Source: an uncultured Actinomycetota bacterium
Lineage (GTDB): Bacteria; Actinomycetota; Actinomycetes; Actinomycetales; Dermatophilaceae
Direction of reading: 5' to 3'
Length of the DNA stretch: 64,000 nt
Assembly (NCBI GenBank): GCA_963726295.1
Contig: CAVSBW010000009.1
Location: 629 to 64,628, forward strand
Below the pieces are notes generated by a model. That model had not been told where the DNA came from, made no database searches, and saw only the letters and a program-made list of their open reading frames with translations. Numbering within the stretch: position 1 is the first letter of the stretch; each line of letters opens with the position of its first letter. Below, piece by piece: positions 33,635 through 54,013 of the stretch. The position numbers and the translations under genes were made by a program.

Positions 33635-36081
33635 CCACCGTCGACCCAGTCCTCAACGCCGTCCCCGGCGCGAACCACGAGAACGCGGTGCCCGTGCGTC
33701 TCGGGTCGCGGGTCGCCGGGGCGCTGCGCGAGCTCGCGACGGACACGGGCGCCCCGCTCGACGCCGCCGTCGTGGCCGGGGTGCAGGTGCTCCTGGCGCG
33801 GCTCCGCGGGACGCCGGAGGTCGTGGTCGGCCTCCCCCTGCCCTGCTCCCCGGCGGCCTTCCCCGTCCGCGGCGACCTCTCCGACGGTCCGGTATACCGA
33901 GAGCTGGTGGGCCGCGTGGCGGCCACCCTCGCGGAGGCCGGGAGCCACGCCGGAGACCTCGACGCGCTGGGGGCGGACCTGAAGGAGGCGTCCGGCGGCC
34001 GGCCGGAGCCCGACGCGGTTGTCGAGCTGCTGCGTCCAGGGGCCTCCGGCGCCGGTTCCACGCTGGCCAAGGCCGATGCGGCCTGGCGACTGACCCTCAG
34101 CGACGGCACACCCGACCTCTCCGGCGAGCTGCGCACGGGCAGCGCGCACCCCGACGAGACCGCCCGGGTCGCCGCGATGCTCGAGCACCTGATCGGCGAG
34201 CTCGTCGCCGCCCCCGGGCGCAAGGTCCTGTCCGTGTCGCCGGTCCCTCCCACGGAGCGCACGCGGCTCCTCCATGGCCTGAACCCGGCACGGGACCCGG
34301 AACCGACCCACGTGACGATGGCCCAGCTGTTCGAGGAGCAGGTGCGCCGTACGCCCGACGCAACGGCGGTCGTCGACGAAAACGACGACCGGCTCACCTA
34401 CGCCGAGCTCAACGTCCGCGCGAACCGGCTCGCACACGAGCTCCGCGCTCTCGGTGCCCGCCCGGGTGGTTTCGTCGCGGTCACCATGCCCCGCAGCATC
34501 GACGTGATGGTGGCGCTCTACGCGGTCACGAAGTCCGGCGCGGCCTACGTACCGGTCGACCCGGACCTCCCCGACTCCCGGATGCAGTTCATGCTCGAGG
34601 ACTCGGCCCCGCTCGCGGTGCTCACCGACGCCGGTACCCGGCCCCGGGTCCCAGCGGGCCGGTGGCAGACCCTCGCGGTCGACGCGGACGCCACCCGGTG
34701 GGCCAGCCGCCCCGCGGAGGACCCACCACCCCTGGAGGGGAACCACCTCATCCACCTGCTGTACACGTCCGGGACGACCGGACGGCCCAAGGCCGTCGCG
34801 TACCCCGTCGACGGGGCGCTGGCCGACATCGCGTGGCTGCACCGGTCCTACCCGTACGGCCCGGGCGATACCGCCCTGTTCAAGACGTCGTACGGTTTCG
34901 ACGTCTCCATCTGGGAGATCTTCTGGCCGCTCTTCCACGGCGCTCGCGTCGCCATCTGCCCACCGGAGGCCCATCGCGACCCCGCCGCGCTCCGCGACGC
35001 CGTGGACCGCTTCCGGGTCACGACCATGTTCATGGTCCCGTCCATGGCGGCCCCGTTCTACTCGTGCACGTCGGCGGGCAGCTGTCCGTCGCTCCGCTGG
35101 GTCTTCTGCGGCGGCGAGGCGGTGACGCCGCGGGTCCGCGACGGCTTCCACGAGCGCTTCTCGGCGCGGATCATCAACTGCTACGGCCCGACCGAGCTCG
35201 GCTGCGTCACCGAGACGGTGCTCCCCGTGGAGCCCGGAGCCCCGGTCCCGGTCGGTCCACCGGTCGAACACCGCCGCGTGTACGTTCTCGACGAATGGCT
35301 GGAGCCGGTTCCCGTCGGGGTGCCGGCCGAGCTGTACGTCGGGGGCCGGGTCGGAATCGCGCAGAGCTACCACCGTCGCCCCGGACTGACCGCCGAGCGG
35401 TTCCCGGCGGACCCGTTCGGAGCCCCCGGCTCCCGTATGTACCGGACGGGCGACCTCGTCCGCTACCGGGCTGACGGAGTACTCGAGCACCTCGGCCGCA
35501 TCGGCCGGCAGGTCAAGATCCGCGGCGTGCGCATCGAACCAGCCGAGATCGAGGCCGTCCTCGCCGAGCACCCGGACGTCGCGCAGTCCGTCGTGACGGT
35601 GATACCCGACACCGACGGCGAGATTGCGGCCTTCGTCGTTCCGGCCGACGGAGCACGGCCGTCGGCCGAGGAGCTGCTCTCGCAGGGCCGTCGGCTGCTC
35701 CCGGCACACATGGTGCCGACGACCGTGACCGTCCTGGACGCCGTCCCGACGCTGGTCAACGGCAAGACCGACGTCGAGACGCTGCTCACCCTGATCGACC
35801 GCGGTGCGCCGTCCGGTCGAACCGGGGTCGAGCCCCCCGCCACCGCCACCGAGGCGCGCACCGTGGCCCTGTTCGCCTCCGTCCTCCAGCTCGACGAGGT
35901 GGGCGCCACCGACGGGTTCTTCGAGCTCGGCGGCCACTCGCTGCTCGTCTTCCGGCTCGTCGAGCTGTGCGGTGCCGAGTTCGGGGTCGACCTCGCGGTC
36001 CGGGACGTCCTGCGCACGCTGACCCCGCGCGGTCTCGCCACGCTCGTCGACGCCCACCCCGACACGGAGGGGGCCCGATGA
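33631..36081 (+). CDS. NRPS, (C-domain remnant)-A-T
   Basis: From ATG 33631 (MTTVDPVLNAV), with ATGA overlap to the MFS gene. A: LIHLLYTSGTTGRPKAV, NCYGPTELG, YRTGDLVRYRADGVLEHLGRIGRQVKIRGVRIEPAEIE, VNGKTD. T: FFELGGHSLLVFRL. The first ~250 aa have no HHxxxD. Confidence 0.85.
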   Translation: MTTVDPVLNAVPGANHENAVPVRLGSRVAGALRELATDTGAPLDAAVVAGVQVLLARLRGTPEVVVGLPLPCSPAAFPVRGDLSDGPVYRELVGRVAATLAEAGSHAGDLDALGADLKEASGGRPEPDAVVELLRPGASGAGSTLAKADAAWRLTLSDGTPDLSGELRTGSAHPDETARVAAMLEHLIGELVAAPGRKVLSVSPVPPTERTRLLHGLNPARDPEPTHVTMAQLFEEQVRRTPDATAVVDENDDRLTYAELNVRANRLAHELRALGARPGGFVAVTMPRSIDVMVALYAVTKSGAAYVPVDPDLPDSRMQFMLEDSAPLAVLTDAGTRPRVPAGRWQTLAVDADATRWASRPAEDPPPLEGNHLIHLLYTSGTTGRPKAVAYPVDGALADIAWLHRSYPYGPGDTALFKTSYGFDVSIWEIFWPLFHGARVAICPPEAHRDPAALRDAVDRFRVTTMFMVPSMAAPFYSCTSAGSCPSLRWVFCGGEAVTPRVRDGFHERFSARIINCYGPTELGCVTETVLPVEPGAPVPVGPPVEHRRVYVLDEWLEPVPVGVPAELYVGGRVGIAQSYHRRPGLTAERFPADPFGAPGSRMYRTGDLVRYRADGVLEHLGRIGRQVKIRGVRIEPAEIEAVLAEHPDVAQSVVTVIPDTDGEIAAFVVPADGARPSAEELLSQGRRLLPAHMVPTTVTVLDAVPTLVNGKTDVETLLTLIDRGAPSGRTGVEPPATATEARTVALFASVLQLDEVGATDGFFELGGHSLLVFRLVELCGAEFGVDLAVRDVLRTLTPRGLATLVDAHPDTEGAR

Positions 36082-37331
36082 GCGCCTCCACGACGACCCC
36101 GGCGACCCGCCCCGACGTGGACCTCGCCGACCTCGACCAGGTCCTCGCCCTCGACCTCGCCGACCCCGCCCTCTACGCCACCGACCGTCCCGAGCGAATC
36201 TGGCGCACGATGCGGCGGTCGGGGACCCCCGTGCTCGTCACCGCCCGCCGACGACATTGGGCGGTCACGCGCTACCAGCAGGTCAGGGAGGTCCTGCGGC
36301 GCAGCGAGGTCCTGTCGTCCGAGCAGGGGATGCGGCTGGGTGAGAAGGCGTCGGACGTGGCCGCAGGGGCGGCCGCGGGTGGGCGGTCGGTCCTCGTCAG
36401 CGACGACCCCGCCCACGCCCGGGTGCGGCGGGTCCTCGAGCCGGCCTTCACCCCCAAGGCGGTCCGCCGCCTCGCCGAGGGCACTCGCGGCCTAGCCGAC
36501 CGGCTCGTCTCCGAGGCCATCGCCCGACCGTCTGTCGACTTCGTCGAGGCTCTCGTCGCCCCGCTGCTCACGACGGTCAGCTGCGACCTCGTCGGGGTTC
36601 CCGAGGCCGACCGCGAGGCGCTCGCGCGACTGAGCCAACGAGCCTTCTGCGGCTCCGGCGATGCGACCGCGTCGACCCAGATCTCCGCGCACGTCGAGTT
36701 GCTCGCCTACTGCGACGAGCTCGTGCTCGCCAAGCGCCGCCGGCCGGGCGACGACGTCGCGAGCATCCTCGCGACCGCGCAGGTCGACGGCGCCCCGATT
36801 CCCCGGAGCGCGGCCGTGATGAACTGCCACGACCTCATCCTCGGCGGCAACGCCTCCGCCCGGTACGCGCTCACCAGCGTCCCGCTGACCATGCTCCACC
36901 AGCGGCCGTTCTGGGACACCCTCCGCGCCGGCGGGGCCGATGTCGATGCGGCGGTGCGGGAGCTGCTGCGCTGCGAGGCCCCCGTGAACCACATCATGCG
37001 CACCCTCCTGGACGACCTGGAGGTGGGTGGTGTGCGGATCCCACGCGGCGAGCTCGTCACCCTGTGGCTGCGTTCGGCCAACCGCGACGAGGAGGTGTTC
37101 GCGCACCCGGACGAGATGCGCCTCGACCTCCCGCGCCGGGCGCACCTGGCCTTCGGGGCCGGGCCCCACCACTGCCTCGCGGCGAACCTCGCGCGTCTGG
37201 AGATCTCCGCGCTGCTCTGTGCGCTGGCCGACCGGGTCGGCGACGTCGAGCCGACCGGTCCGGCGGTCCGGATGGAGTCGGACTTCCTCCGCGGCTACCG
37301 GGAGGTGCCGGTCTCGCTCTCCCCGCGTTGA
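36078..37331 (+). CDS. Cytochrome P450
   Basis: From ATG 36078, with ATGA overlap to the A-T NRPS. ExxR: ELLRCEAPV. Heme loop: FGAGPHHCLAANLARLE. Confidence 0.85.
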   Translation: MSASTTTPATRPDVDLADLDQVLALDLADPALYATDRPERIWRTMRRSGTPVLVTARRRHWAVTRYQQVREVLRRSEVLSSEQGMRLGEKASDVAAGAAAGGRSVLVSDDPAHARVRRVLEPAFTPKAVRRLAEGTRGLADRLVSEAIARPSVDFVEALVAPLLTTVSCDLVGVPEADREALARLSQRAFCGSGDATASTQISAHVELLAYCDELVLAKRRRPGDDVASILATAQVDGAPIPRSAAVMNCHDLILGGNASARYALTSVPLTMLHQRPFWDTLRAGGADVDAAVRELLRCEAPVNHIMRTLLDDLEVGGVRIPRGELVTLWLRSANRDEEVFAHPDEMRLDLPRRAHLAFGAGPHHCLAANLARLEISALLCALADRVGDVEPTGPAVRMESDFLRGYREVPVSLSPR

Positions 37332-38050
37332 GGGGGGCCGGCCAGCAGGCCGATCAGCTCCGCGGGCGCGTCGATGAAACGGCTGTGCCGACCCGGGAAC
37401 ACCGTGAAGGTCGTGTCGGGGCAGGCCGACCAACCCTGCATCTGCGCCGGCGTGATCTCGGTGTCCTCGCTCCAGCCCAGCGCCGTCACCGGGCACGGGA
37501 GCGCGGCGGGCTCCGAGGGGACGTAGCGGCGGATCATGTCGAGGTCAGCCTGGAGGATGTCGACGTAGATGGCGACGAGCTCCGGGTGCGGCTGCTGGCC
37601 CATGTCGCGGACCACCTTCTCGAGCTCCACCTCGAGCGCGGCGTCGTCCATGTCGAGCATCCGCGCGATCATCTCGTCCTGCGGCGCGAGCTGGGACGAC
37701 GCGACGATGCGCACCGGCGGGGGCAGGCCCCGTCTGTGCATCTCGAAGGCCATCTCGTAGGCGGCCAGCGCCGCCCAGCAGTGCCCGAAGACCGTGACGG
37801 GGACGTCGAGGTGGGGGGCGAGCCCGTCGACGAGACCGACCGCCAGCTCCTGGAAGGTCTCAGGCATCCGGTCGCCGAAGCGGGACAGCCGGCCAGGGAG
37901 GTCGACCGCGAGGAACTCGACCGGGCCCCGCTCGACGGGCCAGTTGCGGAACACGCTGACGCCGCACCCCGCATGCGGGATGCACAGCACCCGCGCGGTC
38001 GCGGACGCGGACGGCGGACGCTGCAGCCAGGCCGTCGCCGCCCCGGTCAC
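37295..38050 (-). CDS. Type II thioesterase-like alpha/beta hydrolase with Cys in the nucleophile position
   Basis: 251-aa ORF (GTG start). Motifs: VLCIPHAGCGVSVF, and VFGHCWAALAAYE where canonical TEIIs have GHSxG. GTGA overlap with the PhzF-like gene. Its 3' end overlaps the P450 3' end by 37 nt (convergent). Confidence 0.7.
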   Translation of the reverse strand: MTGAATAWLQRPPSASATARVLCIPHAGCGVSVFRNWPVERGPVEFLAVDLPGRLSRFGDRMPETFQELAVGLVDGLAPHLDVPVTVFGHCWAALAAYEMAFEMHRRGLPPPVRIVASSQLAPQDEMIARMLDMDDAALEVELEKVVRDMGQQPHPELVAIYVDILQADLDMIRRYVPSEPAALPCPVTALGWSEDTEITPAQMQGWSACPDTTFTVFPGRHSRFIDAPAELIGLLAGPPQRGESETGTSR

Positions 38051-38889
38051 GTCCGGACCCCCGCGGAGGCGGGGCGCGCCGCGTCGGCTCGTACCCCTGG
38101 CCGGTCGAGGTGGCGGGGTCCGCCGCGCGGCACGGCACTGCCGATGACCCGCACGAGATCGCCCCGGGCCTCCACCTCGAGCCGTCCCCCGCGCTCCGAG
38201 AGCTGACGCGCGGTGAGCGCCGCCCGGCCCAGCCGGTCGGCCCAGAAGGGCGCCAGCTTGCCGTGGGCGCTGACGCAGACCTGGTCCTCGGTCACGCCGA
38301 GCGCCGGGAAGAACGTGCGAGAGACGAAGTCGGTGCCGGTGCCGCCCGCGGCCGTGACGATGTGACCACGGAACGGCAGGCGAGCGAGGGCGTCGAAGTC
38401 CGGACGCACCGCCGCGACCGCGTCCGGGGTCGCGACCTCGACGAGGACGTCGTCGTGCGAGGTCGCACAGCAGCGGTGATCAGTGAGGCCCAGAGCCTCC
38501 AGCAGCCCGGGAGGAGGCGGCCCGGGGGTGAGGGCCGCCGCGTCCAGCTCGATGGCGACGAGGGGGCCCACCCGTTCCGCCGCGAGGACCCCCTCGCCGC
38601 CGTCGAACACCAGCCGGACCCGCCCGGTGTTCTCCGGGCGGGTGAACAGCACGCGCGCACTCGCGATGGTCGCGTGCCCGCAGACGTTGATCCGGGCGTG
38701 CGGGGTGTACCAGCGCACCCGGTAGCGGCCCGCGCCCGCCTCCGACACGAAGGCGGTCGTCGGAACGCCGATGCGGCGGGCAAGGTCCTGCATCTCGTCC
38801 GGTTCGGGCAGCTCCGGGACCTCGACGACCGCCGCCGGGTTCCCGAGGTGCTCGTCGTCGGCGAAGGCGTCAACGAGGGAATACTGCAT
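38047..38889 (-). CDS. PhzF-family isomerase-like protein
   Basis: In-frame part of ORF 38047..39090 from ATG 38889: MQYSLVDAFADDEHLGNPAAVVEV...TTAFV...RWYTP...INVCGHATIA... is the typical PhzF/YddE pattern. Confidence 0.75.
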   Translation of the reverse strand: MQYSLVDAFADDEHLGNPAAVVEVPELPEPDEMQDLARRIGVPTTAFVSEAGAGRYRVRWYTPHARINVCGHATIASARVLFTRPENTGRVRLVFDGGEGVLAAERVGPLVAIELDAAALTPGPPPPGLLEALGLTDHRCCATSHDDVLVEVATPDAVAAVRPDFDALARLPFRGHIVTAAGGTGTDFVSRTFFPALGVTEDQVCVSAHGKLAPFWADRLGRAALTARQLSERGGRLEVEARGDLVRVIGSAVPRGGPRHLDRPGVRADAARPASAGVRT

Positions 38890-40027
38890 CGGCGCGCCTC
38901 TCCTGCTTTGGGTCCCAGGAACGGAAGAGCGCGTCGATGGCCGACGCCATGCCCCACACCTCCCGGTAGGTGGGGCCCTCGGGGCCCTCGTCGATGTCCC
39001 TCTGGCGAGCGTAGGCGGCCGTCGTCCACTCCGGGGTCGAGGGATAGCGGTGGTGGTGGTCGTGGTTGGGGAGGTCGCCCACCACGACAAGCAGCCGCGC
39101 CGGCACGTGGTAGGAGAGCGTCGCCGCCCACCAGCGCACCCAGGCCGTCGTGCGCCGAGCGAACGGGAGCCCGCGGTCCGGCACCGGGGACCCGCAGAAC
39201 CGGGCCGAGGTGTTCGCCACGGTGTAGTACCGGCCGAGCTCCGGGTCGCGGGGGGCCAGCCACTCGTGCTCGCCGAGCCGGTCGAGCAAGGCGCTCAGCT
39301 GCGCGAACATGACGACCGGCACGAAGAAGGCGAGCACGAGCACGAGCACGCCGTTCGGGAGCCAGAAGGGCAGGGATAGCCACCAGCCGACCCAGACGAG
39401 GAACGCGAGCCGGCGGACCGGGCTCGCTCGCACGTTGCTCCGCACCCGGTCGACGAGACCGCGCCAGTAGAACACCGGCGACAGGAAGACCACCCAGGCG
39501 CGCCGCCACAGACCGCCCCGGGACATGCCGGGATGAAGCCCGAGGTCGAAGAGGAACTGCACGGGAGGGTCGTCCTCGGTCGCGAAGATGTCCCGCCGGT
39601 GGTGGTTGTCGAAGTGCTCGGTTCGGAAGTCCCGGAAGGTGTGGAAAACGCTGAGCACCGTCACCGCCTCGCCCCAGAAGGCGTCGCGCGGAGCCCGCCC
39701 CGAGAAGCGGCGGTGCAACGCCTGGTGGGCGATGACGAGGACCATCATGCGCTCGCCGGCGACCGTGAGCACCCACCCCACGAGCAGCGCGAGGTACCAG
39801 AAGGGGAACATCGTCGCGACGGCGACCGTCGACAGGGCGAGGCCGCCGACGAACAGGGCCACCACCACCGCGAGGTACGACGCCCAGGTGTGGCGCAGCA
39901 GCGGCTCCTGGCCCGGCAGTGCCTTCCCGGTCTGCCAGGTCCAGAAGTGCTGCGTCCACCCCGGGAAGCGCCGGTAGGTGGCACGGACGTCCCTGACGGG
40001 AACCATCGCCTCCTCGCCCGGGGTCAT
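38870..40027 (-). CDS. Membrane fatty-acid-desaturase-family diiron protein
   Basis: In-frame part of ORF 38870..40579 from ATG 40027. Three His boxes (HQALH, HFDNHH, HDHHH) separated by hydrophobic helices. ATGA overlap with the upstream gene. Confidence 0.7.
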   Translation of the reverse strand: MTPGEEAMVPVRDVRATYRRFPGWTQHFWTWQTGKALPGQEPLLRHTWASYLAVVVALFVGGLALSTVAVATMFPFWYLALLVGWVLTVAGERMMVLVIAHQALHRRFSGRAPRDAFWGEAVTVLSVFHTFRDFRTEHFDNHHRRDIFATEDDPPVQFLFDLGLHPGMSRGGLWRRAWVVFLSPVFYWRGLVDRVRSNVRASPVRRLAFLVWVGWWLSLPFWLPNGVLVLVLAFFVPVVMFAQLSALLDRLGEHEWLAPRDPELGRYYTVANTSARFCGSPVPDRGLPFARRTTAWVRWWAATLSYHVPARLLVVVGDLPNHDHHHRYPSTPEWTTAAYARQRDIDEGPEGPTYREVWGMASAIDALFRSWDPKQERRADAVFPR

Positions 40028-40716
40028 CGTGCCGTCGCCGGCGCCCTGACGTCGGACTCGATCGCGAGCCGGTCGAAGAACGCCGTCCAGAGCCGCCACA
40101 TCTCGTCCGCGGCCTTGAGCACCGTCTCCTCCTGCTGCTCGGAGAACTCGGAGGTCAGGGCGTTCTTGGCCTGCTCGACGTGGTCCGGCTCCTGTCGGAG
40201 GTGGATCGCGACCCACTCGTTGTCCTCGACCTCCGTGGCGCGGGCCACGGCCTTCCCGATGCTCGACACCATGAGCAGGTCCGTGGTCTCGGTCGCGAAG
40301 ATCGAGCCGAGGGCGGTCTCCCGGGTGTCCGTGGACACCCGGTACCCCTCGACGAGTGCGGCGGTCTCCGGGTAGGGCTCCGCGGTGCGGATCTGCTCCG
40401 GGTCGAACCCGCACCGGGCCATGGAGTCGAGGTAGATCACCTCGTGGGCCCGGCCGACGTTCCCACCGCCCGCCTCCTGGTTCAGGATCCGTGAGATCGC
40501 GCTCTGGGAGGCGATGTCGGGGAGTACCGCGATGGAGCGGGCGAGGAAGGTCGGGAAGTAGTGCAGCGGGTGCCACCACTGGTCGATGAGCACCGACGCC
40601 TGTTCCTTCGAGAGGTCGATGCTGTCGACGGAGTCGAAGAACCGGTGGTTGCAGAACTCGGTGAAGACCGGGCTCGTGGCGAGCCGCTCGTCGAACGACA
40701 CGTTTGTGGTTGACAT
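40024..40716 (-). CDS. Heme-oxygenase-like diiron (HDO) family protein
   Basis: 230-aa ORF with a GAAGGAG RBS. NHRFFDS...LSKEQASVLIDQWWHPLHYF, QEAGGGNVGRAHEVIY and IHLRQEPDHVEQA match the E/H ligand spacing of the PqqC/CADD/UndA-like helical family as I recall it. Confidence 0.6.
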   Translation of the reverse strand: MSTTNVSFDERLATSPVFTEFCNHRFFDSVDSIDLSKEQASVLIDQWWHPLHYFPTFLARSIAVLPDIASQSAISRILNQEAGGGNVGRAHEVIYLDSMARCGFDPEQIRTAEPYPETAALVEGYRVSTDTRETALGSIFATETTDLLMVSSIGKAVARATEVEDNEWVAIHLRQEPDHVEQAKNALTSEFSEQQEETVLKAADEMWRLWTAFFDRLAIESDVRAPATAR

Positions 40717-40749: not shown

Positions 40750-41640
40750 TCAGGTTGACGGGGAGGACACGGGGCTGAAGGGCACACCCCAGGCGTTCTC
40801 GGTGCGCATCCGGTTGTGCCCGTGGGCGTCCTCACCGGCGACGAGCACGCAGCCGTGCCGGTCGAGGTCAAAGTGGTGCCCGAACTCGTCGAACTCCGTC
40901 ATGCCCCCGTACACGCGCACGTGGGTGGGCACGGTGCGGATCGCGTAGCCCATGCGCTGGCGGTTGCTCGTGTTCGGGTTCGAGCCGTGGATCGTGCGCG
41001 CCGTGAAGATGATGAACTGGCCCGGGCGCATCTCGACGTGGTCGACATGCTCGTCGTCGGGGTCCCAGTCCGGGTCGATCTTGATGTCCTCGTAGTTGTA
41101 GCCGAAGAAGGCGTTGTCCCGTGCCCGACCATTCCAGCTCATCCGCGCATGCTCGTCGTAGCGCCACTGGCGGTGGCTGCCCGGGATGAGCCTCATGCAG
41201 CCGTTCTCCCGAGTGGCCTCCGTGAACGCCACCCAGCAGGTGAGCTCCATCGGGGTCTCCGGAGACTGCTCGGTCGCCTCGAGCATCCCCTCGCTCGTCT
41301 CGCCGATGGCGTAGGTCTCGACCTGGTGCCACCCGGTTCCGGAGTCACCCGGGTTCTTCGGGAAGAACTCGGTGCGCCAGCAGACGATGTCGTCCCCGAT
41401 CAGGGCCTGCATGCGGCGGACGATCTCCGGCTGGGTGATCAGCTCACCGAGTCCCGTGACGTCGAGGTGACGGTCGTAGTTCATCGGGTTGTCGAAGACC
41501 TTCGCCTCGTCGTTGGTCGGGTCGAGAAGGGCCTTGCGCTGCACCTTCCACCACGCAGTCATCTCCTCCGGCTCCCAGAGCGTGAAGGGTCCGATGTAGC
41601 CGCGCTCCGCGAAGGTGCGGCGGTCTGCGTCAAGATCCAT
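40750..41640 (-). CDS. SyrB2/CmaB-family Fe(II)/2-oxoglutarate enzyme, divergent paralogue with HxV motif
   Basis: In-frame part of ORF 40750..41685 from ATG 41640 (MDLDADRRTFAERGYIGPF...). Motifs: NYDRHLD, CWRTEFFPKNPGDSGTGWHQVETY, CWVAFTEATRENGCMRLIPGSH, GQFIIFTARTIHGS. Clearly homologous to the gene at 50845..51798. Confidence 0.8.
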   Translation of the reverse strand: MDLDADRRTFAERGYIGPFTLWEPEEMTAWWKVQRKALLDPTNDEAKVFDNPMNYDRHLDVTGLGELITQPEIVRRMQALIGDDIVCWRTEFFPKNPGDSGTGWHQVETYAIGETSEGMLEATEQSPETPMELTCWVAFTEATRENGCMRLIPGSHRQWRYDEHARMSWNGRARDNAFFGYNYEDIKIDPDWDPDDEHVDHVEMRPGQFIIFTARTIHGSNPNTSNRQRMGYAIRTVPTHVRVYGGMTEFDEFGHHFDLDRHGCVLVAGEDAHGHNRMRTENAWGVPFSPVSSPST

Positions 41641-44245
41641 CGAGGGCACCCGCTGTCTCCGTTCCTGAGTTTTCGAGGGCCGCATCGAGACGGGCCGCGA
41701 GGTCCGCCACGTCGGGCTCGTGCATGACGCTGTGGTGGTCCCCGGCGACGGGGACGGTCGTGAACGGCCCGGTGCAGAGGCCGCGCAGTGCCTCGGCCAA
41801 CCGGGCCTGCCGGCCGGGGTCGGACCCGGCCGGCTGGAAGAGGGTGACCGGCCCGCCGTAGGGCCGGGGCGTGTAGCGCATCGCCGCGTCCATGCAGGCC
41901 CGGGCCCGGAGGAGCACGGTGCGCAGGTAGTCCGTCGGCGTCCCTCCGGTGAGCGGGGCGCCCATGAGCTGGGTCCACACCCGGCCGCTCGTGAGCTCGA
42001 CGACGTCGTCGGGAGAGCAGGTCGGGTCGTCCAGCCGCGACAGGACGCCGTCGAGCATCTCCCGGAAGGGCGTCTCCGCCATGGGCAGCCCGGTCAGCGG
42101 GTCGACCAGGGGATTCGCGTCGACCATCCCCAGCAGGTCCACGGTCACCCCGGCGTCCCGGAGCTGTCGGGCGACCTCGTAGGCGAGGACCCCCCCGAAC
42201 GACCAGCCCGCAAGGAGGTACGGCCCGTCGGGCCGCGCGGCCCGCAGCTGCTCGACGTGGGTACGGGCCAGCTCCTCGAGCGAGGTGCCTCGCGGGACGG
42301 GCCCGGTCCGGGCGACCCCGAGCAACCGGTACGGGGCGCGTGACGCGCGGGCGAGCGCACGGTAGGCGATCGGCTCCCCGCCGAGCGGGTGCAGCAGGTG
42401 GAGGCTGCGGACGGACGGTCCAGGCCGCAGTGTCATGACTGCTGAGCACCTGGCCCGCCCCTCGGCGCGGGCGCCCTGCTCCGCGAGGGCGCCGACGAGC
42501 CCGGAGACGGTGCTGTCGTCGAGGAAGACCGAGAGCCCGAGCGTGCTGCCGAGTTCCTGGGCCATCTCCGCGACCACCCACGTGGCGAGCAGCGAGTCCC
42601 CGCCGATGTCGAAGAAGTCGTCGTGGGCGTCGAACTCGTCGTGCCCGAGGACCCGGCGCCAGATGGCGGTGACGGTGTCGGCCAGAGACGTGCCGGCCCC
42701 GGACGGTCCGGCCTCCGGCAGCTCCAGGGCAGCCAGGGCCTGCGCGTCCACCTTGCCGGAGGAGGTGCGTGGCAACGAGTCGACAAGGACGAACCGCGCG
42801 GGCACCAGGTGCTCCGGTACGAGCCCGCGCAGGTGGTCGACCAGCTCGCGGTGGGGGGCCGGGCCCCGCGTCTGGAGGTAGCCGACGAGGCCCGGCACTC
42901 CCGGGGCGAGGTCGCGCAGCCCGACCGCGGCCGCCTCGACCTGAGGATGGTGTAGTAGGGCACCCTCGACCTCCGCGGGCTCCACCCGGAACCCGCGGAC
43001 CTTGAGCTGTCGGTCGTCACGGCCGAGGAACTCCAGGCCCTGCGATCCCGCGCGGACGAGGTCACCGGTCCGGTAGAGCCGTGTCCCGCTCCCCGTGGGA
43101 TCGGCGACGAAGCGTGTGGCGGTCTGCGCCGCGTCGCCCACGTAGCCGCGGGCCAGACCGGAGCCTCCGAGGTAGAGCTCGCCGACCTCGCCGTCACCGA
43201 CCGCCGCCATCCGCTCGTCGAGCACGGCGCACGTGACCCCGGCCACGGGTGCCCCGATCGGCGGCGCCGCAGGCCACTCCCCCGTCCCGCCGGCGAGGGT
43301 GAAGCGCGTCGCGAGGTGGGCCTCGGTCGGTCCGTAGTGGTTGTCGAGGCGACATTGCGGGAGGGCGCCGAACAGTGCCCGGATCGCGGGTGTCGCGACG
43401 AGGCGCTCACCGGCGGTCACGACGTGGCGCAGCGACGACGGCCACAGGGCGCGGCGCCGAGCGGCGGCGGCGAGGAGCTGCAGCGCGACGTACGGCAGGA
43501 AGAGGCGTTCGGCGTGCTGATCGACGACGAGGTCGAGGAGGGCGTCCGGGTCGCGACGGACCCGCTCCGGGGCGAGCACGAGGGTTCCGCCGGTGGACAC
43601 GGTGGAGAGCACCTCCTGGAACGTCACGTCGAACGAGGTCGCTGTGAACTGCACGGTGCGCAGCCCGCGCGGCCCGTCCGCGACCTGCCAGCCGATGAGC
43701 CGGTCGAGGCCCCGATGGGTCATGCCGACCGCCTTCGGCCGGCCGGTCGACCCCGAGGTGTGCAGCACGTAGGCCAGCGAGTCGGGGGCGGGAGGCGCCG
43801 GGTGGTCCGGGCCCGCGACATCGGGTCCCCGCGGGTCGACCACCTGCGCGGCGGCCACCGGGGCCTCGCCGCCGCCGACCACCACGCGGACGCCGAGCCG
43901 CTCCAGGGCGGCGGCCGTCCGCTCGGGGGGAGCGCCCTCGTCGATCGGGCAGTAGGCGCCCCCGGCGAGGAGAATGCCGAGCATCGCGACGACGCCGTCG
44001 ACGGAACGGTCCGACACGGCGGCCACGACCTCGTCCTGCGACACCCCGGCCGTCCGCAGGCGTGCGGCCAGGCCTTCGACCCGCCGGAGGAGCTCGCCGT
44101 AGGTGGCCGGCCGCCCGGGGGCCGTCGGGTCGACGACGGCGGGCTCGTCGGGATGGGTCCGGGCATGCTCGGTGAGGGCGGCGTGCCAGGACCAACCCGG
44201 GGCGGGGGCCCCCGTGGGGGGGGTCATGGTCTGGGTCACTGTCAT
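41630..44245 (-). CDS. NRPS, A-T-TE (stand-alone loading/release tridomain)
   Basis: In-frame part of ORF 41630..44776 from ATG 44245 (MTVTQTMTPP). A: [74 protein letters not shown]: FFDIGGDSLLATWV. TE: LLAGWSFGG. Confidence 0.85.
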   Translation of the reverse strand: MTVTQTMTPPTGAPAPGWSWHAALTEHARTHPDEPAVVDPTAPGRPATYGELLRRVEGLAARLRTAGVSQDEVVAAVSDRSVDGVVAMLGILLAGGAYCPIDEGAPPERTAAALERLGVRVVVGGGEAPVAAAQVVDPRGPDVAGPDHPAPPAPDSLAYVLHTSGSTGRPKAVGMTHRGLDRLIGWQVADGPRGLRTVQFTATSFDVTFQEVLSTVSTGGTLVLAPERVRRDPDALLDLVVDQHAERLFLPYVALQLLAAAARRRALWPSSLRHVVTAGERLVATPAIRALFGALPQCRLDNHYGPTEAHLATRFTLAGGTGEWPAAPPIGAPVAGVTCAVLDERMAAVGDGEVGELYLGGSGLARGYVGDAAQTATRFVADPTGSGTRLYRTGDLVRAGSQGLEFLGRDDRQLKVRGFRVEPAEVEGALLHHPQVEAAAVGLRDLAPGVPGLVGYLQTRGPAPHRELVDHLRGLVPEHLVPARFVLVDSLPRTSSGKVDAQALAALELPEAGPSGAGTSLADTVTAIWRRVLGHDEFDAHDDFFDIGGDSLLATWVVAEMAQELGSTLGLSVFLDDSTVSGLVGALAEQGARAEGRARCSAVMTLRPGPSVRSLHLLHPLGGEPIAYRALARASRAPYRLLGVARTGPVPRGTSLEELARTHVEQLRAARPDGPYLLAGWSFGGVLAYEVARQLRDAGVTVDLLGMVDANPLVDPLTGLPMAETPFREMLDGVLSRLDDPTCSPDDVVELTSGRVWTQLMGAPLTGGTPTDYLRTVLLRARACMDAAMRYTPRPYGGPVTLFQPAGSDPGRQARLAEALRGLCTGPFTTVPVAGDHHSVMHEPDVADLAARLDAALENSGTETAGALDGS

Positions 44246-44479: not shown

Positions 44480-45022
44480 ATGGACACGCTCACCGCTCGC
44501 CCGACCGCGCCGGCCGAACCGGACTGCATCGGTCCGATCGCCATCGCACCACGGCTCGCCCACGAGCTCGAGGTGCTCGCCGCCGGCGCGGCCGCCGACG
44601 ACCTCGCCCCGTTCGTGGTCTGCGCATCCGAGTTGTTGCTGCGCTGGTCGCGGGGCGGCACGCCGAGGTGTGCCCGCGTGATCCGGGGCCGTCACGAGGC
44701 GTTCGCACATCCCGTCGCCCCGACGGGGACGACCCCGGACCGGGCCCACCTGAGCTTCCGGGACGCTCTGGTCCACCTGGCCGCCCGGCCGGCCGAGGAG
44801 GTGGACCCGGCAGACCTGGCCGATGTCACGATCCTCATCTCCTCCGACGGTGAGCGGATGTACCTCGAGCGCACGACCACCGGGGCCGGTGGCCCCTGCC
44901 TCGGGTCTTGGGCCGACACCTACCTCGGCCTGCTCGGCACCCTCGCGGAACGTCCGGACGCCCCCCAGATCACCCGCCCCGGCACCCCAGGGGACGGCGT
45001 GACGGTGTTGGCGGCCTCGTGA
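44480..45022 (+). CDS. Small protein resembling the C-terminal part of a condensation domain (possible remnant or docking protein)
   Basis: In-frame part of ORF 44357..45022 from ATG 44480. No HHxxxD. The tail resembles the region that precedes A domains in NRPSs. GTGA overlap with the next NRPS (45019-45022). Confidence 0.35.
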   Translation: MDTLTARPTAPAEPDCIGPIAIAPRLAHELEVLAAGAAADDLAPFVVCASELLLRWSRGGTPRCARVIRGRHEAFAHPVAPTGTTPDRAHLSFRDALVHLAARPAEEVDPADLADVTILISSDGERMYLERTTTGAGGPCLGSWADTYLGLLGTLAERPDAPQITRPGTPGDGVTVLAAS

Positions 45023-48000
45023 CGGCGACGCGTACCGACCCCGACGTCACGGTGACGGTGGGCTCCGCCGACGGTGGTCCGGAGGAGGACCGGACCGTCC
45101 CCGGGCTCATCCTGGCCCGGGCCCGCCGACGGCCCCGTGCCGTCGCCGTCGAGGCGGTGGACGGACGCCTCACCTACGGCTCGCTCGTCGACCGCGCGGG
45201 GGCGGTCGCTCGCCACCTCCGAGCCCTGGGGATCTCGGGCGGTGACGTCGTCGCCGTGGATGTCGAGCGCACCATCGACCTCGTGCCCGCACTGCTCGGC
45301 GTGCAGCTGAGCGGGGCCGCCTACCTTCCCCTGGACCCCGGCCACCCGAGGGAGCGGGTCGAGAGCATCCTGGCCGACACGAGGACGGCCGTGCTGCTCA
45401 CGGACGACGCCCACCGCTCGCCCCCGGGGGCCGGACGCACGGTCCCGATGTCGCAGATCCACCCCGCGGAAGGGACCGACGGCCTCGGCGCGTCCCCGGA
45501 CGCAGCGGCCTACGTCATCCACACCTCGGGGTCGACCGGCCGTCCGAAGGGCGTCATGGTCGGCCACCGGGCCCTGACCAACCTCATCCTGTCCCTGCGT
45601 GACCTGTTCGGGCTCCCGGAGGACTGCGTGCTGCCCGCCGTGACGACGGTCTCCTTCGACATCGCCGGGCTCGAGCTGTTCCTCCCCCTGACCGGAGGCG
45701 GAACCGTCGTCCTCGGCGAACCCGCCGATGCCCGTGACCCGCACCGCCTCACGGCCCTTGTCGAGCGGGCTGGGGCCTCGGTGCTCCAGGCCACCCCCAC
45801 CTCCTGGCGCCTGCTCCTCGCGGCCGGCTGGCAGCCGCCGCCGGGCTTCACTGTCCTCTGCGGTGGGGAGCGGCTCCCCTCCGACGTCGCCGACGACCTC
45901 CTCACCGACGCCACGGTCCTGTGGGACCTGTACGGACCGACCGAGACGACGATCTGGTCCGCCGTCACCCGGTACGAGAGGGGCACCACCCCACGGTTCC
46001 ATCCCGTACGCGGAACCTCCCTCGTCGTGCTCGACGGCGCGCTGGACCCGGTCCCCGACGGCTCCCCCGGGGAGCTCTACATCGGGGGCCCCGGACTGGC
46101 CGAGGGCTACCTCGGCCGGCCCGGCGCCACCGCCGGCCGCTTCATCGCGCACCCGTGGTCCCACGGCGCGCGGTTGTACCGCACGGGTGACCTCGCACGG
46201 CGGCTCCCCGACGGCCGCACCGAGATCCTCGGACGGACCGACGACCAGGTGAAGATCCGCGGCTTCCGCGTGGAGCCGGGAGAGATCGAGGCCGCTCTGG
46301 TGCGGCACCCGGGGGTGGCCTCCGCCGCGGTGGCGGCCGAGCAGACGGACCACGGGGCCCGGCTCGTCGCGCACGTTTGCGCGTCCGACCCCGCCGATCA
46401 CCCGGACGAGGGCACGCTGCGCCGCCACCTGGGGCAGCGCCTCCCGGAGTACATGGTGCCCGCAGAGTTCCGCGCCGTCGAACGGCTGCCGACCACCCCC
46501 AATGGGAAGCTCGACCGGGCGGCCCTCGCCGCCCCGGATGGCCGGCGCTCCGGCGCGCCGGTGGCGGCCCCGCGCTCCCCCGCGTCCGCCCCGCCCGCCG
46601 CGGACGACAAGGGGTCACCGGGACCGGGCAGCGAGGTCGTCGTCGCCCGGGTCCTGGCGGAGGCCCTGGACCGCGACCACGTCGGCGTGCACGACGACTT
46701 CTTCTCGCTCGGTGGCGACTCGCTGCGCGCGGTGCAGGCGATCCTCCGGCTCAACGCCGAGCTGGGAACCGAGCTGCCGGTCAACACGCTCTTCGAGATG
46801 CGCACCGGGTACGGGCTCGCGCGCCTCGTCGACGGCGACATCGTCCCCGAGCCGACGCTGGAGGCCCTCCCGAAGGCCCAGCCGCACCAGCTCTCGGCGG
46901 CCCAGTGGCGGCTGTTGCTGCACCAGACGCACGCCCCGGAGAGCGTCCTGCACAACCGGGCCCTCGCGCTCCGGGTACCGGACGACGTCGACGTCGACGC
47001 CGTGCGGGACGCCGTCGACGGCCTCGTGGCCCGGCACGGGACGTTGCGGACCCGCTATGTGGTGGACGCGGCCGGCCTGCCGCGCCCGGTCCTCGAGGAA
47101 CCCGGCCGGACGCCGGTGACGCTCGTGGACGCCGACCCGGCCGCCACACTCGCTGACGAGCTGTCGCGCCCCTTCGACCTCGCTGGGTCGGTGCCGGTCC
47201 GCGCGCGGGTGGTCCGAGGGCCCGACGGCGGGAGCTACGTCGTGCTCACCGTCCACGAGATTGCTGCAGACCACCGCTCGCGGGCCCTCCTCGTGCGACA
47301 GCTGCGGGCCGCTTTCCGTGGCCATCCGGTCCCCGACCCGCCCTTCGACTACGTGGACTATGCCGCGTGGCAGCGCGAGCTGGCGGGCGGGCCGAACACG
47401 CAACGTCACCTGGACTACTGGCGCGCCACGCTCGCCGGGCTCGACCCTGCCGACCTGCGGACCGACCGGCCGCGCCCGTCGCGACGCGTCCGCAGCGCCG
47501 GCGCCGTGCGCTTCTCCCTCCCGCGCGAGGTCGTGGCCGGGACCCACGACCTCGCCGCCGACCATGACGCGCCCCTGGCGGTCGGTCTCCTCGCCGGGCT
47601 CGTCGCGGTGCTCGACCGGTACACGACCGGCTCGGACGTCACCGTCGGGGTCCACACCGACGGGGCCGAGCACCCGGACCTCGAGCAGATGGTCGGGGCG
47701 TTCGAGAGCACGGTGCCGCTGAGGGTCCGGACGGCCGACGCCGACGCCCCCGGGCAGCTGCTCGGCCGGGTGCGGGAGGCGGCGATCAGTGCGCTCGGTC
47801 ACGCCAGCCCGCCGCTGGAGGACGTCGTCTCGGCAACGGTCGGCTGCGTCGCACCGTCCGCGCCCGGCCGGAATCCCCTCTTCGACGTCTCCTTCGCACT
47901 CCGTGCCCCCACGGGGCTCAGCGACCTCGACGTCCCGCCGTGCGCCGAGGCCGCGGTCGACCTGCACTGCGAGCTGACCGAGCTGCCTGACGGCGGCGTC

Positions 48001-48147
48001 GACGGCCATTTCCACTACGCCAAGGCCCTCTTCGACGAGACGACGGTGCGCGGCATGGCCGACGAGATGGTCCGCCACCTGACCCGCGTCGCGGCCGAGC
48101 ACCGTCCTCCCCCCGCCCCGTTCGACCCGACAAGGAGATCATCGTGA
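45019..48147 (+). CDS. NRPS, A-T-C* (terminal C domain has HExxxD)
   Basis: From GTG 45019 (VTATRTDPDV). A: [78 protein letters not shown]: FFSLGGDSLRAVQAI. C: LSAAQWRLLL, TVHEIAADHRS. Confidence 0.85.
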   Translation: MTATRTDPDVTVTVGSADGGPEEDRTVPGLILARARRRPRAVAVEAVDGRLTYGSLVDRAGAVARHLRALGISGGDVVAVDVERTIDLVPALLGVQLSGAAYLPLDPGHPRERVESILADTRTAVLLTDDAHRSPPGAGRTVPMSQIHPAEGTDGLGASPDAAAYVIHTSGSTGRPKGVMVGHRALTNLILSLRDLFGLPEDCVLPAVTTVSFDIAGLELFLPLTGGGTVVLGEPADARDPHRLTALVERAGASVLQATPTSWRLLLAAGWQPPPGFTVLCGGERLPSDVADDLLTDATVLWDLYGPTETTIWSAVTRYERGTTPRFHPVRGTSLVVLDGALDPVPDGSPGELYIGGPGLAEGYLGRPGATAGRFIAHPWSHGARLYRTGDLARRLPDGRTEILGRTDDQVKIRGFRVEPGEIEAALVRHPGVASAAVAAEQTDHGARLVAHVCASDPADHPDEGTLRRHLGQRLPEYMVPAEFRAVERLPTTPNGKLDRAALAAPDGRRSGAPVAAPRSPASAPPAADDKGSPGPGSEVVVARVLAEALDRDHVGVHDDFFSLGGDSLRAVQAILRLNAELGTELPVNTLFEMRTGYGLARLVDGDIVPEPTLEALPKAQPHQLSAAQWRLLLHQTHAPESVLHNRALALRVPDDVDVDAVRDAVDGLVARHGTLRTRYVVDAAGLPRPVLEEPGRTPVTLVDADPAATLADELSRPFDLAGSVPVRARVVRGPDGGSYVVLTVHEIAADHRSRALLVRQLRAAFRGHPVPDPPFDYVDYAAWQRELAGGPNTQRHLDYWRATLAGLDPADLRTDRPRPSRRVRSAGAVRFSLPREVVAGTHDLAADHDAPLAVGLLAGLVAVLDRYTTGSDVTVGVHTDGAEHPDLEQMVGAFESTVPLRVRTADADAPGQLLGRVREAAISALGHASPPLEDVVSATVGCVAPSAPGRNPLFDVSFALRAPTGLSDLDVPPCAEAAVDLHCELTELPDGGVDGHFHYAKALFDETTVRGMADEMVRHLTRVAAEHRPPPAPFDPTRRSS

Positions 48148-50835: not shown

Positions 50836-50844
50836 GCCGGCGGC

Positions 50845-51798: not shown

Positions 51799-52058
51799 GG
51801 GGTGGCTCCTGCCGTCGCCGGTGTCGTGGGGTCGAGGTGCTGGGCCACGAGCTCGGAGAGGGCGTCGACGCTGGCCTCCTCGAGCTCGCCGACGTCGACG
51901 GCGACGTCGTAGCGCTCGCTGATCCGGGCCACGGCCCGGATGAACGCGAGCGACGTGGCGCCCTGGTCGAAGACGTCGACGGCCGGGTCGACGTCGCGAC
52001 CGAGCATCGTGGTGACGATCTCGTGGACCGTCCGCCGCACGTCGGGCGGTGCCGTCAT
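51795..52058 (-). CDS. Stand-alone peptidyl carrier protein
   Basis: 87-aa ORF with [16 protein letters not shown] (carrier-protein Ser motif). ATGA overlap with the halogenase start (51795-51798). Confidence 0.75.
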
Positions 52059-54008: not shown

Positions 54009-54013
54009 CGGTC

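What the first reader, a model, noticed from the sequence alone, without database searches (positions are those of the whole stretch)
41317..41328. SyrB2-family paralogue carries H-x-V where halogenases have H-x-A/G and hydroxylases H-x-D/E
Seen: minus-strand codons CAC CAG GTC GAG at 41328..41317 encode H105-Q-V107-E in GTGWHQVETY. This aligns with DWHQADTF (H122-Q-A124-D) in the paralogue at 50845..51798. The second His (IHGS vs MHAS) and the surrounding blocks are conserved. Established: loss of the carboxylate ligand opens the Fe site for halide in SyrB2, CmaB and CytC3. Inference: Val also removes the carboxylate but is bulkier than Ala or Gly. The enzyme could be a halogenase with altered anion or substrate geometry, or it could do non-halogenating radical chemistry. 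The adjacent Glu might also re-create a shifted facial triad.
Basis: partly seen in the sequence, partly recalled or inferred. Interest (0 to 1): 0.7.

Follow-up and report, generated by a model that had tools for sequence, protein, structure and literature searches.

The report
SyrB2-like iron enzyme with His-x-Val
A gene annotated by homology as an iron "chlorinating enzyme" has valine where known halogenases have alanine or glycine; the change is fixed in hundreds of relatives that sit in a conserved, uncharacterised proline-modifying gene cassette, so its chemistry is an open, testable question.

Summary
Codons 41328..41317 (minus strand) encode H105-Q-V107-E108. V107 aligns without gaps to the ligand-replacing Ala118 of SyrB2 and to the equivalent Ala of CytC3.

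It is not a one-off. All 120 closest homologues (67-87% identity) have H-Q-V. A second deep clade has H-Q-V-R. In both clades Val comes with Tyr at SyrB2-F121, Ala at SyrB2-S231 and an acidic residue at SyrB2-T141. The paralogue's clade is 120/120 H-Q-A-D with Ser231.

The gene is translationally coupled to an A-T-TE protein whose adenylation code (DVQFVAHLAK) is proline-like. It lies in a cassette conserved in about 35 of 40 species genomes: A-T-TE, HxV enzyme, (free-proline-hydroxylase homologue, absent here), a haem-oxygenase-like diiron oxidase weakly related to BesC, a membrane desaturase-like protein, a PhzF-like isomerase and a thioesterase.

I found no characterised HxV member in the searchable literature. 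Databases call them all "chlorinating enzyme".

The idea that Glu108 makes a shifted triad is not supported. Whether the enzyme chlorinates (my slight preference, probably cryptically) or does non-halogenating oxidation cannot be decided in silico. I rate it a new variant of a known kind.

The parts
40750..41640 (-). HxV enzyme: 296-aa PhyH-family, SyrB2/CytC3-type Fe(II)/2OG protein. Key residues: H105 (41328..41326), V107 (41322..41320), E108, Y110, E132 (41247..41245), T134, W136, A214 (41001..40999), H218 (40989..40987), R235.
41630..44245 (-). A-T-TE tridomain protein (about 871 aa). Its stop overlaps the HxV start by 11 nt. The Stachelhaus code DVQFVAHLAK is proline-like, and the TE domain has a GWSFGG motif. 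It is the inferred carrier and loader for the HxV enzyme.
40024..40716 (-). Haem-oxygenase-like diiron oxidase (Pfam Haem_oxygenas_2). Its best solved relative is BesC, 4-chloro-allylglycine synthase (E=3e-8).
38870..40006 (-). Membrane fatty-acid-desaturase-like protein (Pfam FA_desaturase). It has a weak NCBIfam hit to GntB, an L-arginine gamma-hydroxylase.
38113..38889 (-). PhzF-family isomerase-like protein. Its start overlaps the end of the desaturase gene.
37295..38050 (-). Free-standing type II thioesterase at the end of the operon.
33379..36081 (+). Companion A-T didomain protein (ORF bounds; true start not determined). Its code, DVWFFGCCVK, is unusual. It co-occurs with the cassette in nearly all loci, including Pseudoalteromonas and Bradyrhizobium. 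Here it is followed by a P450 gene (35967..37331).
50845..51798 (-). Canonical HxA paralogue (H122-Q-A124-D, STLMHAS), 41% identical to the HxV enzyme. It scores 446 bits on TIGR01762.
52083..54101 (-). Stand-alone adenylation protein with a Thr code (DFWNVGMVHK), upstream of the HxA paralogue (ORF bounds).
49615..50844 (-). Alpha/beta-hydrolase immediately downstream of the HxA paralogue. Its position matches that of SyrC/CmaE-type aminoacyl shuttles; that role is inferred.

Best explanation
The gene encodes an active, carrier-protein-dependent Fe(II)/2-oxoglutarate C-H-activating enzyme of the SyrB2/CytC3 lineage. It belongs to a large, previously unrecognised HxV subfamily.

Inferred mechanism. 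L-proline is loaded on the T domain of the translationally coupled A-T-TE protein. The HxV enzyme attacks a ring C-H of prolyl-S-T. The haem-oxygenase-like oxidase, the desaturase-like protein and the PhzF-like isomerase then process the product further. A thioesterase releases a non-proteinogenic amino acid for the surrounding NRPS.

The iron site has two His ligands and no carboxylate at the canonical position. Val107 belongs to a co-evolved pocket: V107, Y110, A214 and E132 in place of SyrB2 A118, F121, S231 and T141.

My preferred reading, by a small margin, is that this is an alternative packing of the halide pocket. On that reading the enzyme still binds chloride and chlorinates prolyl-S-T, probably as a cryptic activating step.

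Shown: the alignment register, conservation, co-variation, synteny and the adenylation code. Inferred: the substrate, halide binding, and the order and chemistry of all steps.
For: Register and fold:
- The alignment to SyrB2 and CytC3 is gap-free.
- The AF2 model matches 2fct at TM 0.90.
- H105, H218, R235, T134 and W136 are retained.

Conservation:
- V is present in 120/120 homologues.
- A second clade has V+Y+D132+A214 in 112/120.

Co-variation:
- V pairs with Ala at the Ser231 position in 4/7 HxV representatives, against 0/42 HxA representatives.
- The change Ser to Ala makes room next to the larger Val. That fits repacking of the chloride pocket rather than filling it. By my recollection of the 2006 SyrB2 structure paper, Ala118, Phe121 and Ser231 line that pocket.

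Phylogeny: the HxV clades are nested among HxA lineages of the ~300-aa SyrB2 subfamily, and the sister of the target clade is HxA.

Context:
- The enzyme sits in an A / T / TE cassette like those of all characterised carrier-dependent halogenases.
- The next oxidase is most similar to BesC, whose native substrate is made by an Fe/2OG halogenase.
- The adenylation code DVQFVAHL[AV]K is conserved in about 35 loci.
- A homologue of free-proline cis-3/cis-4 hydroxylases sits in most cassettes (E=1e-39).

A second-sphere Glu is compatible with halogenation in BesD and HalB (abstract of 10.1101/2023.05.25.542349).
Against: - No characterised Fe/2OG halogenase has anything but Ala or Gly at this position. 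Current mining rules use HxA/G (10.64898/2026.01.20.700248).
- Val is strictly fixed, with no Ala or Gly in more than 230 sequences. This suggests selection for bulk, which could equally mean exclusion of halide.
- An invariant carboxylate (E132/D132) near the site could repel anions or even bind the metal.
- The target scores much lower on the chlorinating-enzyme model TIGR01762 than its paralogue (311 against 446 bits).
- The same gene cluster already has a canonical Thr-chlorination set.
- A desaturase-like enzyme in the cassette would make a chlorine leaving group unnecessary for unsaturation.
- AspH shows that a natural 2-His Fe/2OG enzyme can be a hydroxylase (PMC10947486 abstract).
- No coordinates were available, so the V107-Fe and E132-Fe distances were not measured.
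Confidence: 0.4

Rival explanations
1. Non-halogenating oxygenase or desaturase. Val107 fills or shields the site that chloride occupies in SyrB2, and the iron keeps water or hydroxide there. The water may be held by E132, or E132 may itself act as a relocated carboxylate ligand. The enzyme then hydroxylates or desaturates the prolyl-S-T ring and supplies an oxidised proline to the downstream oxidases.
For: - Val is strictly invariant, where a neutral pocket residue would be expected to toggle with Ala.
- At 50%-identity representatives, an acidic residue at the T141 position occurs in 5/7 HxV against 2/42 HxA (Fisher p=2e-4, not corrected for phylogeny). It is invariant in both large HxV clades.
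- That position lies on the same face of the strand as T143 and W145, which point into the active site.
- The TIGR01762 score is lower than the paralogue's.
- AspH is a natural 2-His Fe/2OG hydroxylase (PMC10947486, PMC13168262 abstracts).
- The cassette is rich in other oxidases and an isomerase, and has no obvious chloride-displacing enzyme.
Against: - Carrier-dependent amino-acid hydroxylation is normally done by P450, TauD-type or diiron enzymes. No SyrB2-type hydroxylase is characterised.
- The HxA sister P0121 also has Glu at position 132, so the acid is not strictly tied to Val.
- One HxV lineage (P0129) lacks the acid.
- The Ser231-to-Ala change next to Val suggests the extra bulk is accommodated away from the metal.
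- A second-sphere Glu exists in genuine halogenases of the BesD family (10.1101/2023.05.25.542349).
Confidence: 0.35
2. Radical enzyme with a different exogenous ligand or outcome. The tightened, more hydrophobic pocket with a nearby acid would select a ligand other than chloride, such as another small anion or the substrate's own ring nitrogen. Alternatively the enzyme performs C-C or C-N bond scission or rearrangement of the proline ring.
For: - The pocket is remodelled at many clade-specific positions around the metal: SyrB2 positions 114, 118, 119, 121, 124, 125, 129-132, 140, 141, 146, 230-232 and 236.
- The companion A-T that always accompanies the cassette does not have a proline-type code. 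This would fit a ring-opened product, but equally an unrelated building block.
- From my own knowledge, SyrB2 can transfer azide and nitrite.
Against: There is no positive evidence for any particular ligand or rearrangement. The companion A-T may simply load a different amino acid, since a P450 follows it in the window. A smaller pocket argues against larger anions.
Confidence: 0.12
3. Catalytically dead or purely structural paralogue of a halogenase.
For: Only the absence of the canonical A/G and the lower family-model score.
Against: - Both His ligands, the 2OG-binding Arg, T134 and W136 are invariant across divergent homologues.
- The gene is conserved in a fixed operon position across several phyla.
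- The structure model is confident.
Confidence: 0.03

Closest known systems
SyrB2 (syringomycin, Thr-S-SyrB1 4-chlorinase; PDB 2FCT) and CytC3 (PDB 3GJA/3GJB)
   Same: - Same fold and length, with 37-47% identity.
- Both His ligands, the 2OG-binding Arg, Thr143 and Trp145 equivalents are present.
- No carboxylate at the ligand position.
- Encoded next to an adenylation and carrier protein, with a thioesterase nearby.
   Different: - Val instead of Ala at the ligand position.
- Tyr for Phe121 and Ala for Ser231.
- Thr and Arg for Trp230 and Thr232.
- Glu for Thr141.
- The partner adenylation domain has a proline-type code.
- Downstream genes are a diiron oxidase, a desaturase-like protein and a PhzF-like isomerase, not a SyrC- or CmaC-type partner.
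KthP (kutzneride piperazyl-S-carrier chlorinase) - from memory, sequence not available here
   Same: A SyrB2-type enzyme acting on a carrier-bound cyclic imino or hydrazino acid. This is the closest substrate analogy to prolyl-S-T. Piperazate-synthesis genes (KtzI/KtzT-like) lie next to the cassette in 3 of about 40 loci.
   Different: No Kutzneria locus appeared among relatives with 55% identity or more. KthP's motif could not be checked because the paper is not held. Most cassettes have no piperazate genes.
BesD/BesC pair of the beta-ethynylserine pathway
   Same: An Fe/2OG enzyme without a carboxylate ligand is followed by a haem-oxygenase-like diiron oxidase. The window's oxidase has BesC as its best solved relative.
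   Different: BesD belongs to a different Fe/2OG subfamily and acts on free lysine. The similarity to BesC is remote (E=3e-8; 33 bits against a 500-bit NCBIfam cut-off). The substrate here is carrier-bound and proline-like.
AspH (human aspartate/asparagine beta-hydroxylase)
   Same: A natural Fe/2OG oxygenase with only two His protein ligands (PMC10947486 abstract). It shows that loss of the carboxylate does not by itself mean halogenation.
   Different: Unrelated subfamily, protein substrate, eukaryotic.

Membership tests
PhyH-type Fe(II)/2OG oxygenase superfamily | Significant match to PF05721 and a double-stranded beta-helix fold | tested here: met
   PF05721 E=1.8e-29 and 104 bits against a cut-off of 22. 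The best Foldseek matches of the AF2 model are SyrB2 and CytC3, followed by other PhyH-type enzymes.
PhyH-type Fe(II)/2OG oxygenase superfamily | Two His iron ligands and a basic residue binding the 2OG C5 carboxylate | tested here: met
   H105, H218 and R235 are invariant in a 44-sequence alignment spanning 29-82% identity.
SyrB2/CmaB/CytC3 'chlorinating enzyme' subfamily (TIGR01762) | Score above the curated cut-off of the family model | tested here: met
   310.7 bits against a cut-off of 226.3. The paralogue scores 445.8.
SyrB2/CmaB/CytC3 'chlorinating enzyme' subfamily (TIGR01762) | No Asp or Glu at the H-x-(D/E) ligand position | tested here: met
   V107 aligns to SyrB2 A118 without gaps.
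Fe/2OG halogenases as currently defined | Small residue (Ala or Gly) at the ligand position, the H-x-A/G motif used for mining | tested here: not met
   Val in 120/120 members of the clade. The HxG/A rule is stated in 10.64898/2026.01.20.700248.
Fe/2OG halogenases as currently defined | Halide bound to Fe, and halide-dependent C-Cl bond formation | not testable with these tools
   This needs biochemistry or a structure. The modelling tool returns no coordinates.
Carrier-protein-dependent tailoring enzymes | Encoded beside, and co-conserved with, an adenylation and thiolation protein | tested here: met
   An 11-nt overlap with the A-T-TE gene. The same order is seen in about 40 loci.
Canonical 2-His-1-carboxylate hydroxylases | Asp or Glu two residues after the first His | tested here: not met
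   The residue is Val. The neighbouring Glu108 is homologous to the non-ligand Asp119 of SyrB2, and is Arg in the second HxV clade.

The most novel reading that the evidence does not exclude
HxV enzymes may be a natural class of carboxylate-free (or carboxylate-relocated, via E/D132) SyrB2-type Fe/2OG enzymes that do not halogenate.

In this cassette the enzyme would start an undescribed conversion of carrier-bound proline into a new amino acid. The steps could include ring functionalisation, BesC-like oxidative C-C scission by the diiron oxidase, further desaturation by the acetylenase-type membrane enzyme and isomerisation by the PhzF-like protein. A ring-opened vinyl- or ethynyl-glycine-type product is one possibility, re-activated by the co-conserved non-proline A-T protein.

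A second HxV clade (A - HxV - T - cupin - TE with amino-acid exporters, present even in Klebsiella aerogenes) would make another unknown antimetabolite.
Probability: 0.25. Interest if true: 0.85.

Novelty: new variant of a known kind. Interest (0 to 1): 0.62.

Why it matters
H-x-A/G against H-x-D/E is the rule used to tell iron halogenases from hydroxylases. It is used in genome mining and as the starting point for enzyme engineering.

This work finds a third state, H-x-V. It is fixed together with three other pocket residues in at least two deep, widespread clades. All members are auto-annotated as "chlorinating enzyme" and none is characterised.

If they chlorinate, the motif rule and the picture of the halide pocket need widening. 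If they do not, they are a natural example of how this scaffold is switched away from halogenation, which is useful for engineering.

Either way, the conserved cassette points to an undescribed proline-derived building block in many actinomycete peptide clusters. The second HxV clade points to an unknown small amino-acid product in Streptomyces, Pseudomonas and Klebsiella aerogenes.

Tried and rejected
1. An indel shifting the register. Rejected: the alignment to SyrB2 and CytC3 is gap-free across the motif and the model superposes on 2fct at 1.9 A.

2. A sequencing error or pseudogene. Rejected: V is present in 120/120 homologues, the ORF is intact and the gene is coupled to its neighbour.

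3. Glu108 as a shifted ligand. Rejected as a general solution. It is homologous to SyrB2 D119, is Ala in CytC3 and is Arg in HxV clade 2.

4. Literature search for a characterised HxV enzyme or for this cassette. All ten full-text searches found nothing relevant. The KthP paper is not held. Subscription-journal papers are largely outside the library, so this absence is weak evidence.

5. Exact look-up of the target protein in public assemblies. It was not found. The paralogue was found at 100% identity in a metagenome-derived record, so the window is probably from an uncultured actinomycete.

6. Piperazate as the general substrate. Rejected: KtzI/KtzT-like genes are adjacent in only 3 loci.

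7. Measuring V107-chloride and E132-Fe distances. Not possible, because structure prediction returns no coordinates.

8. Identifying the final natural product from NRPS codes (Ser, Ser, Gly, Thr, a basic-type DVEE code). No match to a known compound that I could defend.

Full report
**1. The observation**

Minus-strand codons 41328..41317 read CAC CAG GTC GAG. They encode H105-Q-V107-E108 of a 296-aa ORF (ATG 41640, stop 40750), within GTGWHQVETY.

The protein is a PhyH-family Fe/2OG enzyme (PF05721, E=2e-29). Its best solved relatives by sequence are CytC3 (E=2e-72) and SyrB2 (E=6e-65). In both printed alignments the block GTGWHQVETYA pairs column for column with GTDWHQA[D/A]TFA. V107 therefore occupies the position of SyrB2 Ala118 with no nearby indel.

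The in-window paralogue (50845..51798) is 41% identical and has H122-Q-A124-D in the same register. The second His (H218), the 2OG-binding Arg (R235 = SyrB2 R254), T134 (= T143) and W136 (= W145) are present. H105, H218, R235 and W136 are invariant in a 44-sequence alignment reaching down to 29% identity, and T134 is conserved in at least 90% of those sequences.

**2. HxV is a fixed state of large clades**

All 120 closest cluster representatives (67-87% identity) have G-T-G-W-H-Q-V. In 119 the next residue is E, in one it is Q. As a control, the 120 closest homologues of the paralogue, at similar divergence, are 120/120 H-Q-A-D, and all 117 that matched the second-His pattern have Ser at the SyrB2-231 position. 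Ala and Val therefore do not toggle within clades.

I scanned 1.84 billion 50%-identity representatives. Among 125 full-length relatives the counts were HxA 42, HxD 43, HxT 9, HxV 7 (16 with fragments), HxG 7, HxE 7, HxN 5 and HxS 3.

A profile of the non-target HxV representatives retrieved a second large clade: H-Q-V-R in 105 of 120 and H-A-V-R in 7. It occurs in Streptomyces, Rhodococcus, Actinoplanes, Microbispora, Pseudomonas wayambapalatensis and Klebsiella aerogenes.

In a neighbour-joining tree the HxV lineages sit inside the ~300-aa SyrB2/CytC3 subfamily, interspersed with HxA lineages. The sister of the target clade is HxA (no bootstrap).

Sources call every one of these proteins "chlorinating enzyme" or "halogenase". 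The target passes TIGR01762 (311 bits, cut-off 226) but scores far below the paralogue (446 bits).

**3. What changes together with Val**

I compared the two 120-sequence clades. The positions that are conserved in each clade but differ between them cluster around the metal site. In SyrB2 numbering they are:
- 114 (D to G), 118 (A to V), 119 (D to E), 121 (F to Y)
- 124/125, 129-132
- 140/141 (G,T to M,E), 146
- 230-232 (W,S,T to T,A,R), 236 and 240

Across independent lineages, three partners recur with Val: Tyr at 121, Ala at 231 and an acidic residue at 141.
- Ala at the 231 position occurs in 4/7 HxV representatives and 0/42 HxA representatives.
- An acid at the 141 position occurs in 5/7 HxV and 2/42 HxA representatives (Fisher p=2e-4, not corrected for phylogeny).
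- The acid is Glu in 120/120 of the target clade. It is Asp in all 112 H-[Q/A]-V-R sequences of the second clade.

By my recollection of the SyrB2 structure paper, Ala118, Phe121 and Ser231 line the chloride pocket. Position 141 lies on the same strand face as T143 and W145, which point into the active site. The quartet V107/Y110/E132/A214 is thus a coherent remodelling of exactly the halide region.

The residue after Val is Glu in the target clade, Arg in the second clade, Asp in SyrB2 and Ala in CytC3. SyrB2 has an acid at that very position and, as I recall, still binds iron through two histidines only.

**4. Genomic context**

The HxV start overlaps the stop of an upstream gene by 11 nt. 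That gene encodes an A-T-TE protein (41630..44245).

Downstream, on the same strand, lie:
- a haem-oxygenase-like diiron oxidase (40024..40716)
- a fatty-acid-desaturase-like membrane protein (38870..40006)
- a PhzF-like isomerase (38113..38889)
- a thioesterase (37295..38050)

A scan of one genome per species found 40 loci. About 35 of them carry the same order: A-T-TE, HxV, [proline-hydroxylase homologue], diiron oxidase, desaturase-like, PhzF-like, often with a Na+/H+-exchanger-family transporter and a thioesterase.

The taxa are Nocardia, Streptosporangium, Pseudonocardia, Amycolatopsis, Streptomyces, Micromonospora, Actinoplanes and an Eremiobacterota MAG. Reduced versions occur in Pyrinomonadaceae, Bradyrhizobium, Planctomycetota and Pseudoalteromonas luteoviolacea.

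The extra gene, absent from the window, is a clear homologue of the free L-proline cis-4 and cis-3 hydroxylases (E=5e-39 and 2e-36).

The Stachelhaus code of the A-T-TE adenylation domain is DVQFVAHLAK in the window and DVQF[VI]AHLVK in about 35 orthologues. I judged this against the classical Pro code DVQ[LF][IV]AHVVK, which I recalled from memory; the PheA ruler returned the correct DAWTIAAICK. Proline, or a close analogue, is therefore the inferred carrier-bound substrate.

A second A-T protein with the unusual code DVWF[FLM]GC[CNS]VK accompanies the cassette in nearly all loci, including the Gram-negative ones. In the window it is 33379..36081 and is followed by a P450 gene.

The diiron oxidase has BesC as its best solved relative (E=3e-8) and is equally weakly related to CADD.

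The paralogue sits in a textbook SyrB1/SyrB2/SyrC-like arrangement: a Thr-code adenylation protein (DFWNVGMVHK), the HxA enzyme and an alpha/beta-hydrolase.

The second HxV clade sits in a different small cluster: A - HxV - T - Cupin_2 - TE, with LysE, EamA or Na+/H+-exchanger-type transporters and HMGL-like enzymes. Its adenylation code is DIR[LC]FGQDVK.

**5. Mechanism**

What is solid: this is a functional, carrier-dependent Fe/2OG enzyme with two His ligands, no carboxylate at the canonical position and a co-evolved pocket. What it does with the open site is not decided by the data.

Evidence for retained, probably cryptic, chlorination:
- It is nested in the halogenase subfamily.
- Its cassette architecture is that of all known carrier-dependent halogenases.
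- The space-creating Ser231-to-Ala change next to Val suggests the extra methyls pack sideways rather than into the halide site.
- The next enzyme resembles BesC.
- BesD-family halogenases also have a second-sphere Glu near the anion site (abstract of 10.1101/2023.05.25.542349).

Evidence for non-halogenating oxidation:
- Every characterised halogenase has Ala or Gly.
- Val is strictly fixed.
- An invariant carboxylate appears beside the site and could hold water, repel halide or even ligate iron.
- The family-model score is lower.
- The cassette contains other desaturating enzymes and no recognisable chloride-displacing enzyme.
- AspH shows that a 2-His Fe/2OG enzyme can be a hydroxylase (PMC10947486, PMC13168262 abstracts).

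My estimates are 0.40 for halogenase, 0.35 for oxygenase or desaturase, 0.12 for another ligand or rearrangement chemistry and 0.03 for inactive.

**6. Comparison and novelty**

The enzyme is a member of the PhyH superfamily and of the SyrB2/CytC3 structural subfamily. It fails the one sequence feature, H-x-A/G, by which Fe/2OG halogenases are currently recognised. I therefore do not file it as a halogenase.

Ten full-text searches found no paper on an HxV enzyme, an A118V variant or this cassette. The library lacks most subscription journals, so this is weak evidence of absence.

I rate it a new variant of a known kind. It is of real interest to Fe/2OG enzymologists and natural-product miners, and its function is unresolved.

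**7. Limits**
- No model coordinates were available, so the geometry was not tested.
- The tree is neighbour-joining without support values.
- The co-variation counts are small and phylogenetically non-independent.
- Substrate assignment rests on an adenylation code and on synteny.
- The window appears to come from an uncultured actinomycete. The paralogue was found at 100% identity in a metagenome-derived record, and the nearest cassettes are in soil MAGs at 85-86% identity. No producer strain or product is known.

Noticed in passing
window 49615..54101 (minus strand): A complete SyrB1/SyrB2/SyrC-like set. It comprises a stand-alone adenylation protein with a Thr code (DFWNVGMVHK), the canonical HxA halogenase paralogue and an alpha/beta-hydrolase. 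It probably makes 4-chlorothreonine for the NRPS. The same trio lies near the HxV cassette in the closest relatives (L005, L006, L021).
   Followed up: partly
window 33379..37331 (plus strand); loci L001-L042: An A-T didomain protein with the unusual specificity code DVWF[FLM]GC[CNS]VK co-occurs with the HxV cassette in nearly all loci, including Pseudoalteromonas and Bradyrhizobium. In the window it is followed by a cytochrome P450. It may re-activate the cassette's product or load a separate beta-hydroxylated residue.
   Followed up: partly
loci L052 (Klebsiella aerogenes) 8428..13598 and L053 (Streptomyces sp. NBC_01410) 4396..13875: A second large HxV clade (H-Q-V-R, Tyr, Asp at the T141 position, Ala at the S231 position). 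It sits in a small conserved cluster: A - HxV - T - Cupin_2 - TE, with LysE or Na+/H+-exchanger-type exporters and HMGL-like enzymes. The adenylation code is DIR[LC]FGQDVK. I know of no characterised product.
   Followed up: partly
loci L005-L040, e.g. L019 14272..15645; also L049 1049..2197 and L053 4396..5691: A Na_H_Exchanger-family transporter gene lies next to the HxV cassette in at least 22 loci. It also lies next to the HxA sister lineage (P0121) and the second HxV clade. It is missing from the window, where the PhzF-like gene and the thioesterase are only 62 nt apart. Its role (product export, or ion supply) is unknown.
   Followed up: partly
protein representatives P0152-P0245: Relatives of about 400-430 aa carry H-x-T (9 representatives), H-x-N (5) or H-x-S (3) at the ligand position. 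The position varies more than the A/G-versus-D/E dichotomy suggests.
   Followed up: no
loci L034 3529..4203, L041 5074..7020, L045 4767..6884: In three loci a KtzI/KtzT-like ornithine N-oxygenase / piperazate-synthase gene sits directly beside the A-T-TE gene. This hints that in some clusters the cassette works alongside, or on, piperazate.
   Followed up: no
window 60150..64000 and 13290..14450: A TauD-family oxygenase lies between two class I/II aminotransferase-fold genes, and there is a luciferase-like monooxygenase. The same set is found next to the cassette in Streptomyces sp. NPDC021020 (L046). It may make a hydroxylated or cyclised basic amino acid for the NRPS module with the DVEE[IV]G code.
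   Followed up: no
window 20954..28774: An NRPS gene encodes two serine-code modules (DVWHFSLIDK twice) and a terminal thioesterase. Together with the Gly-code module at 44854..48147, this outlines a peptide I could not match to a known compound.
   Followed up: no
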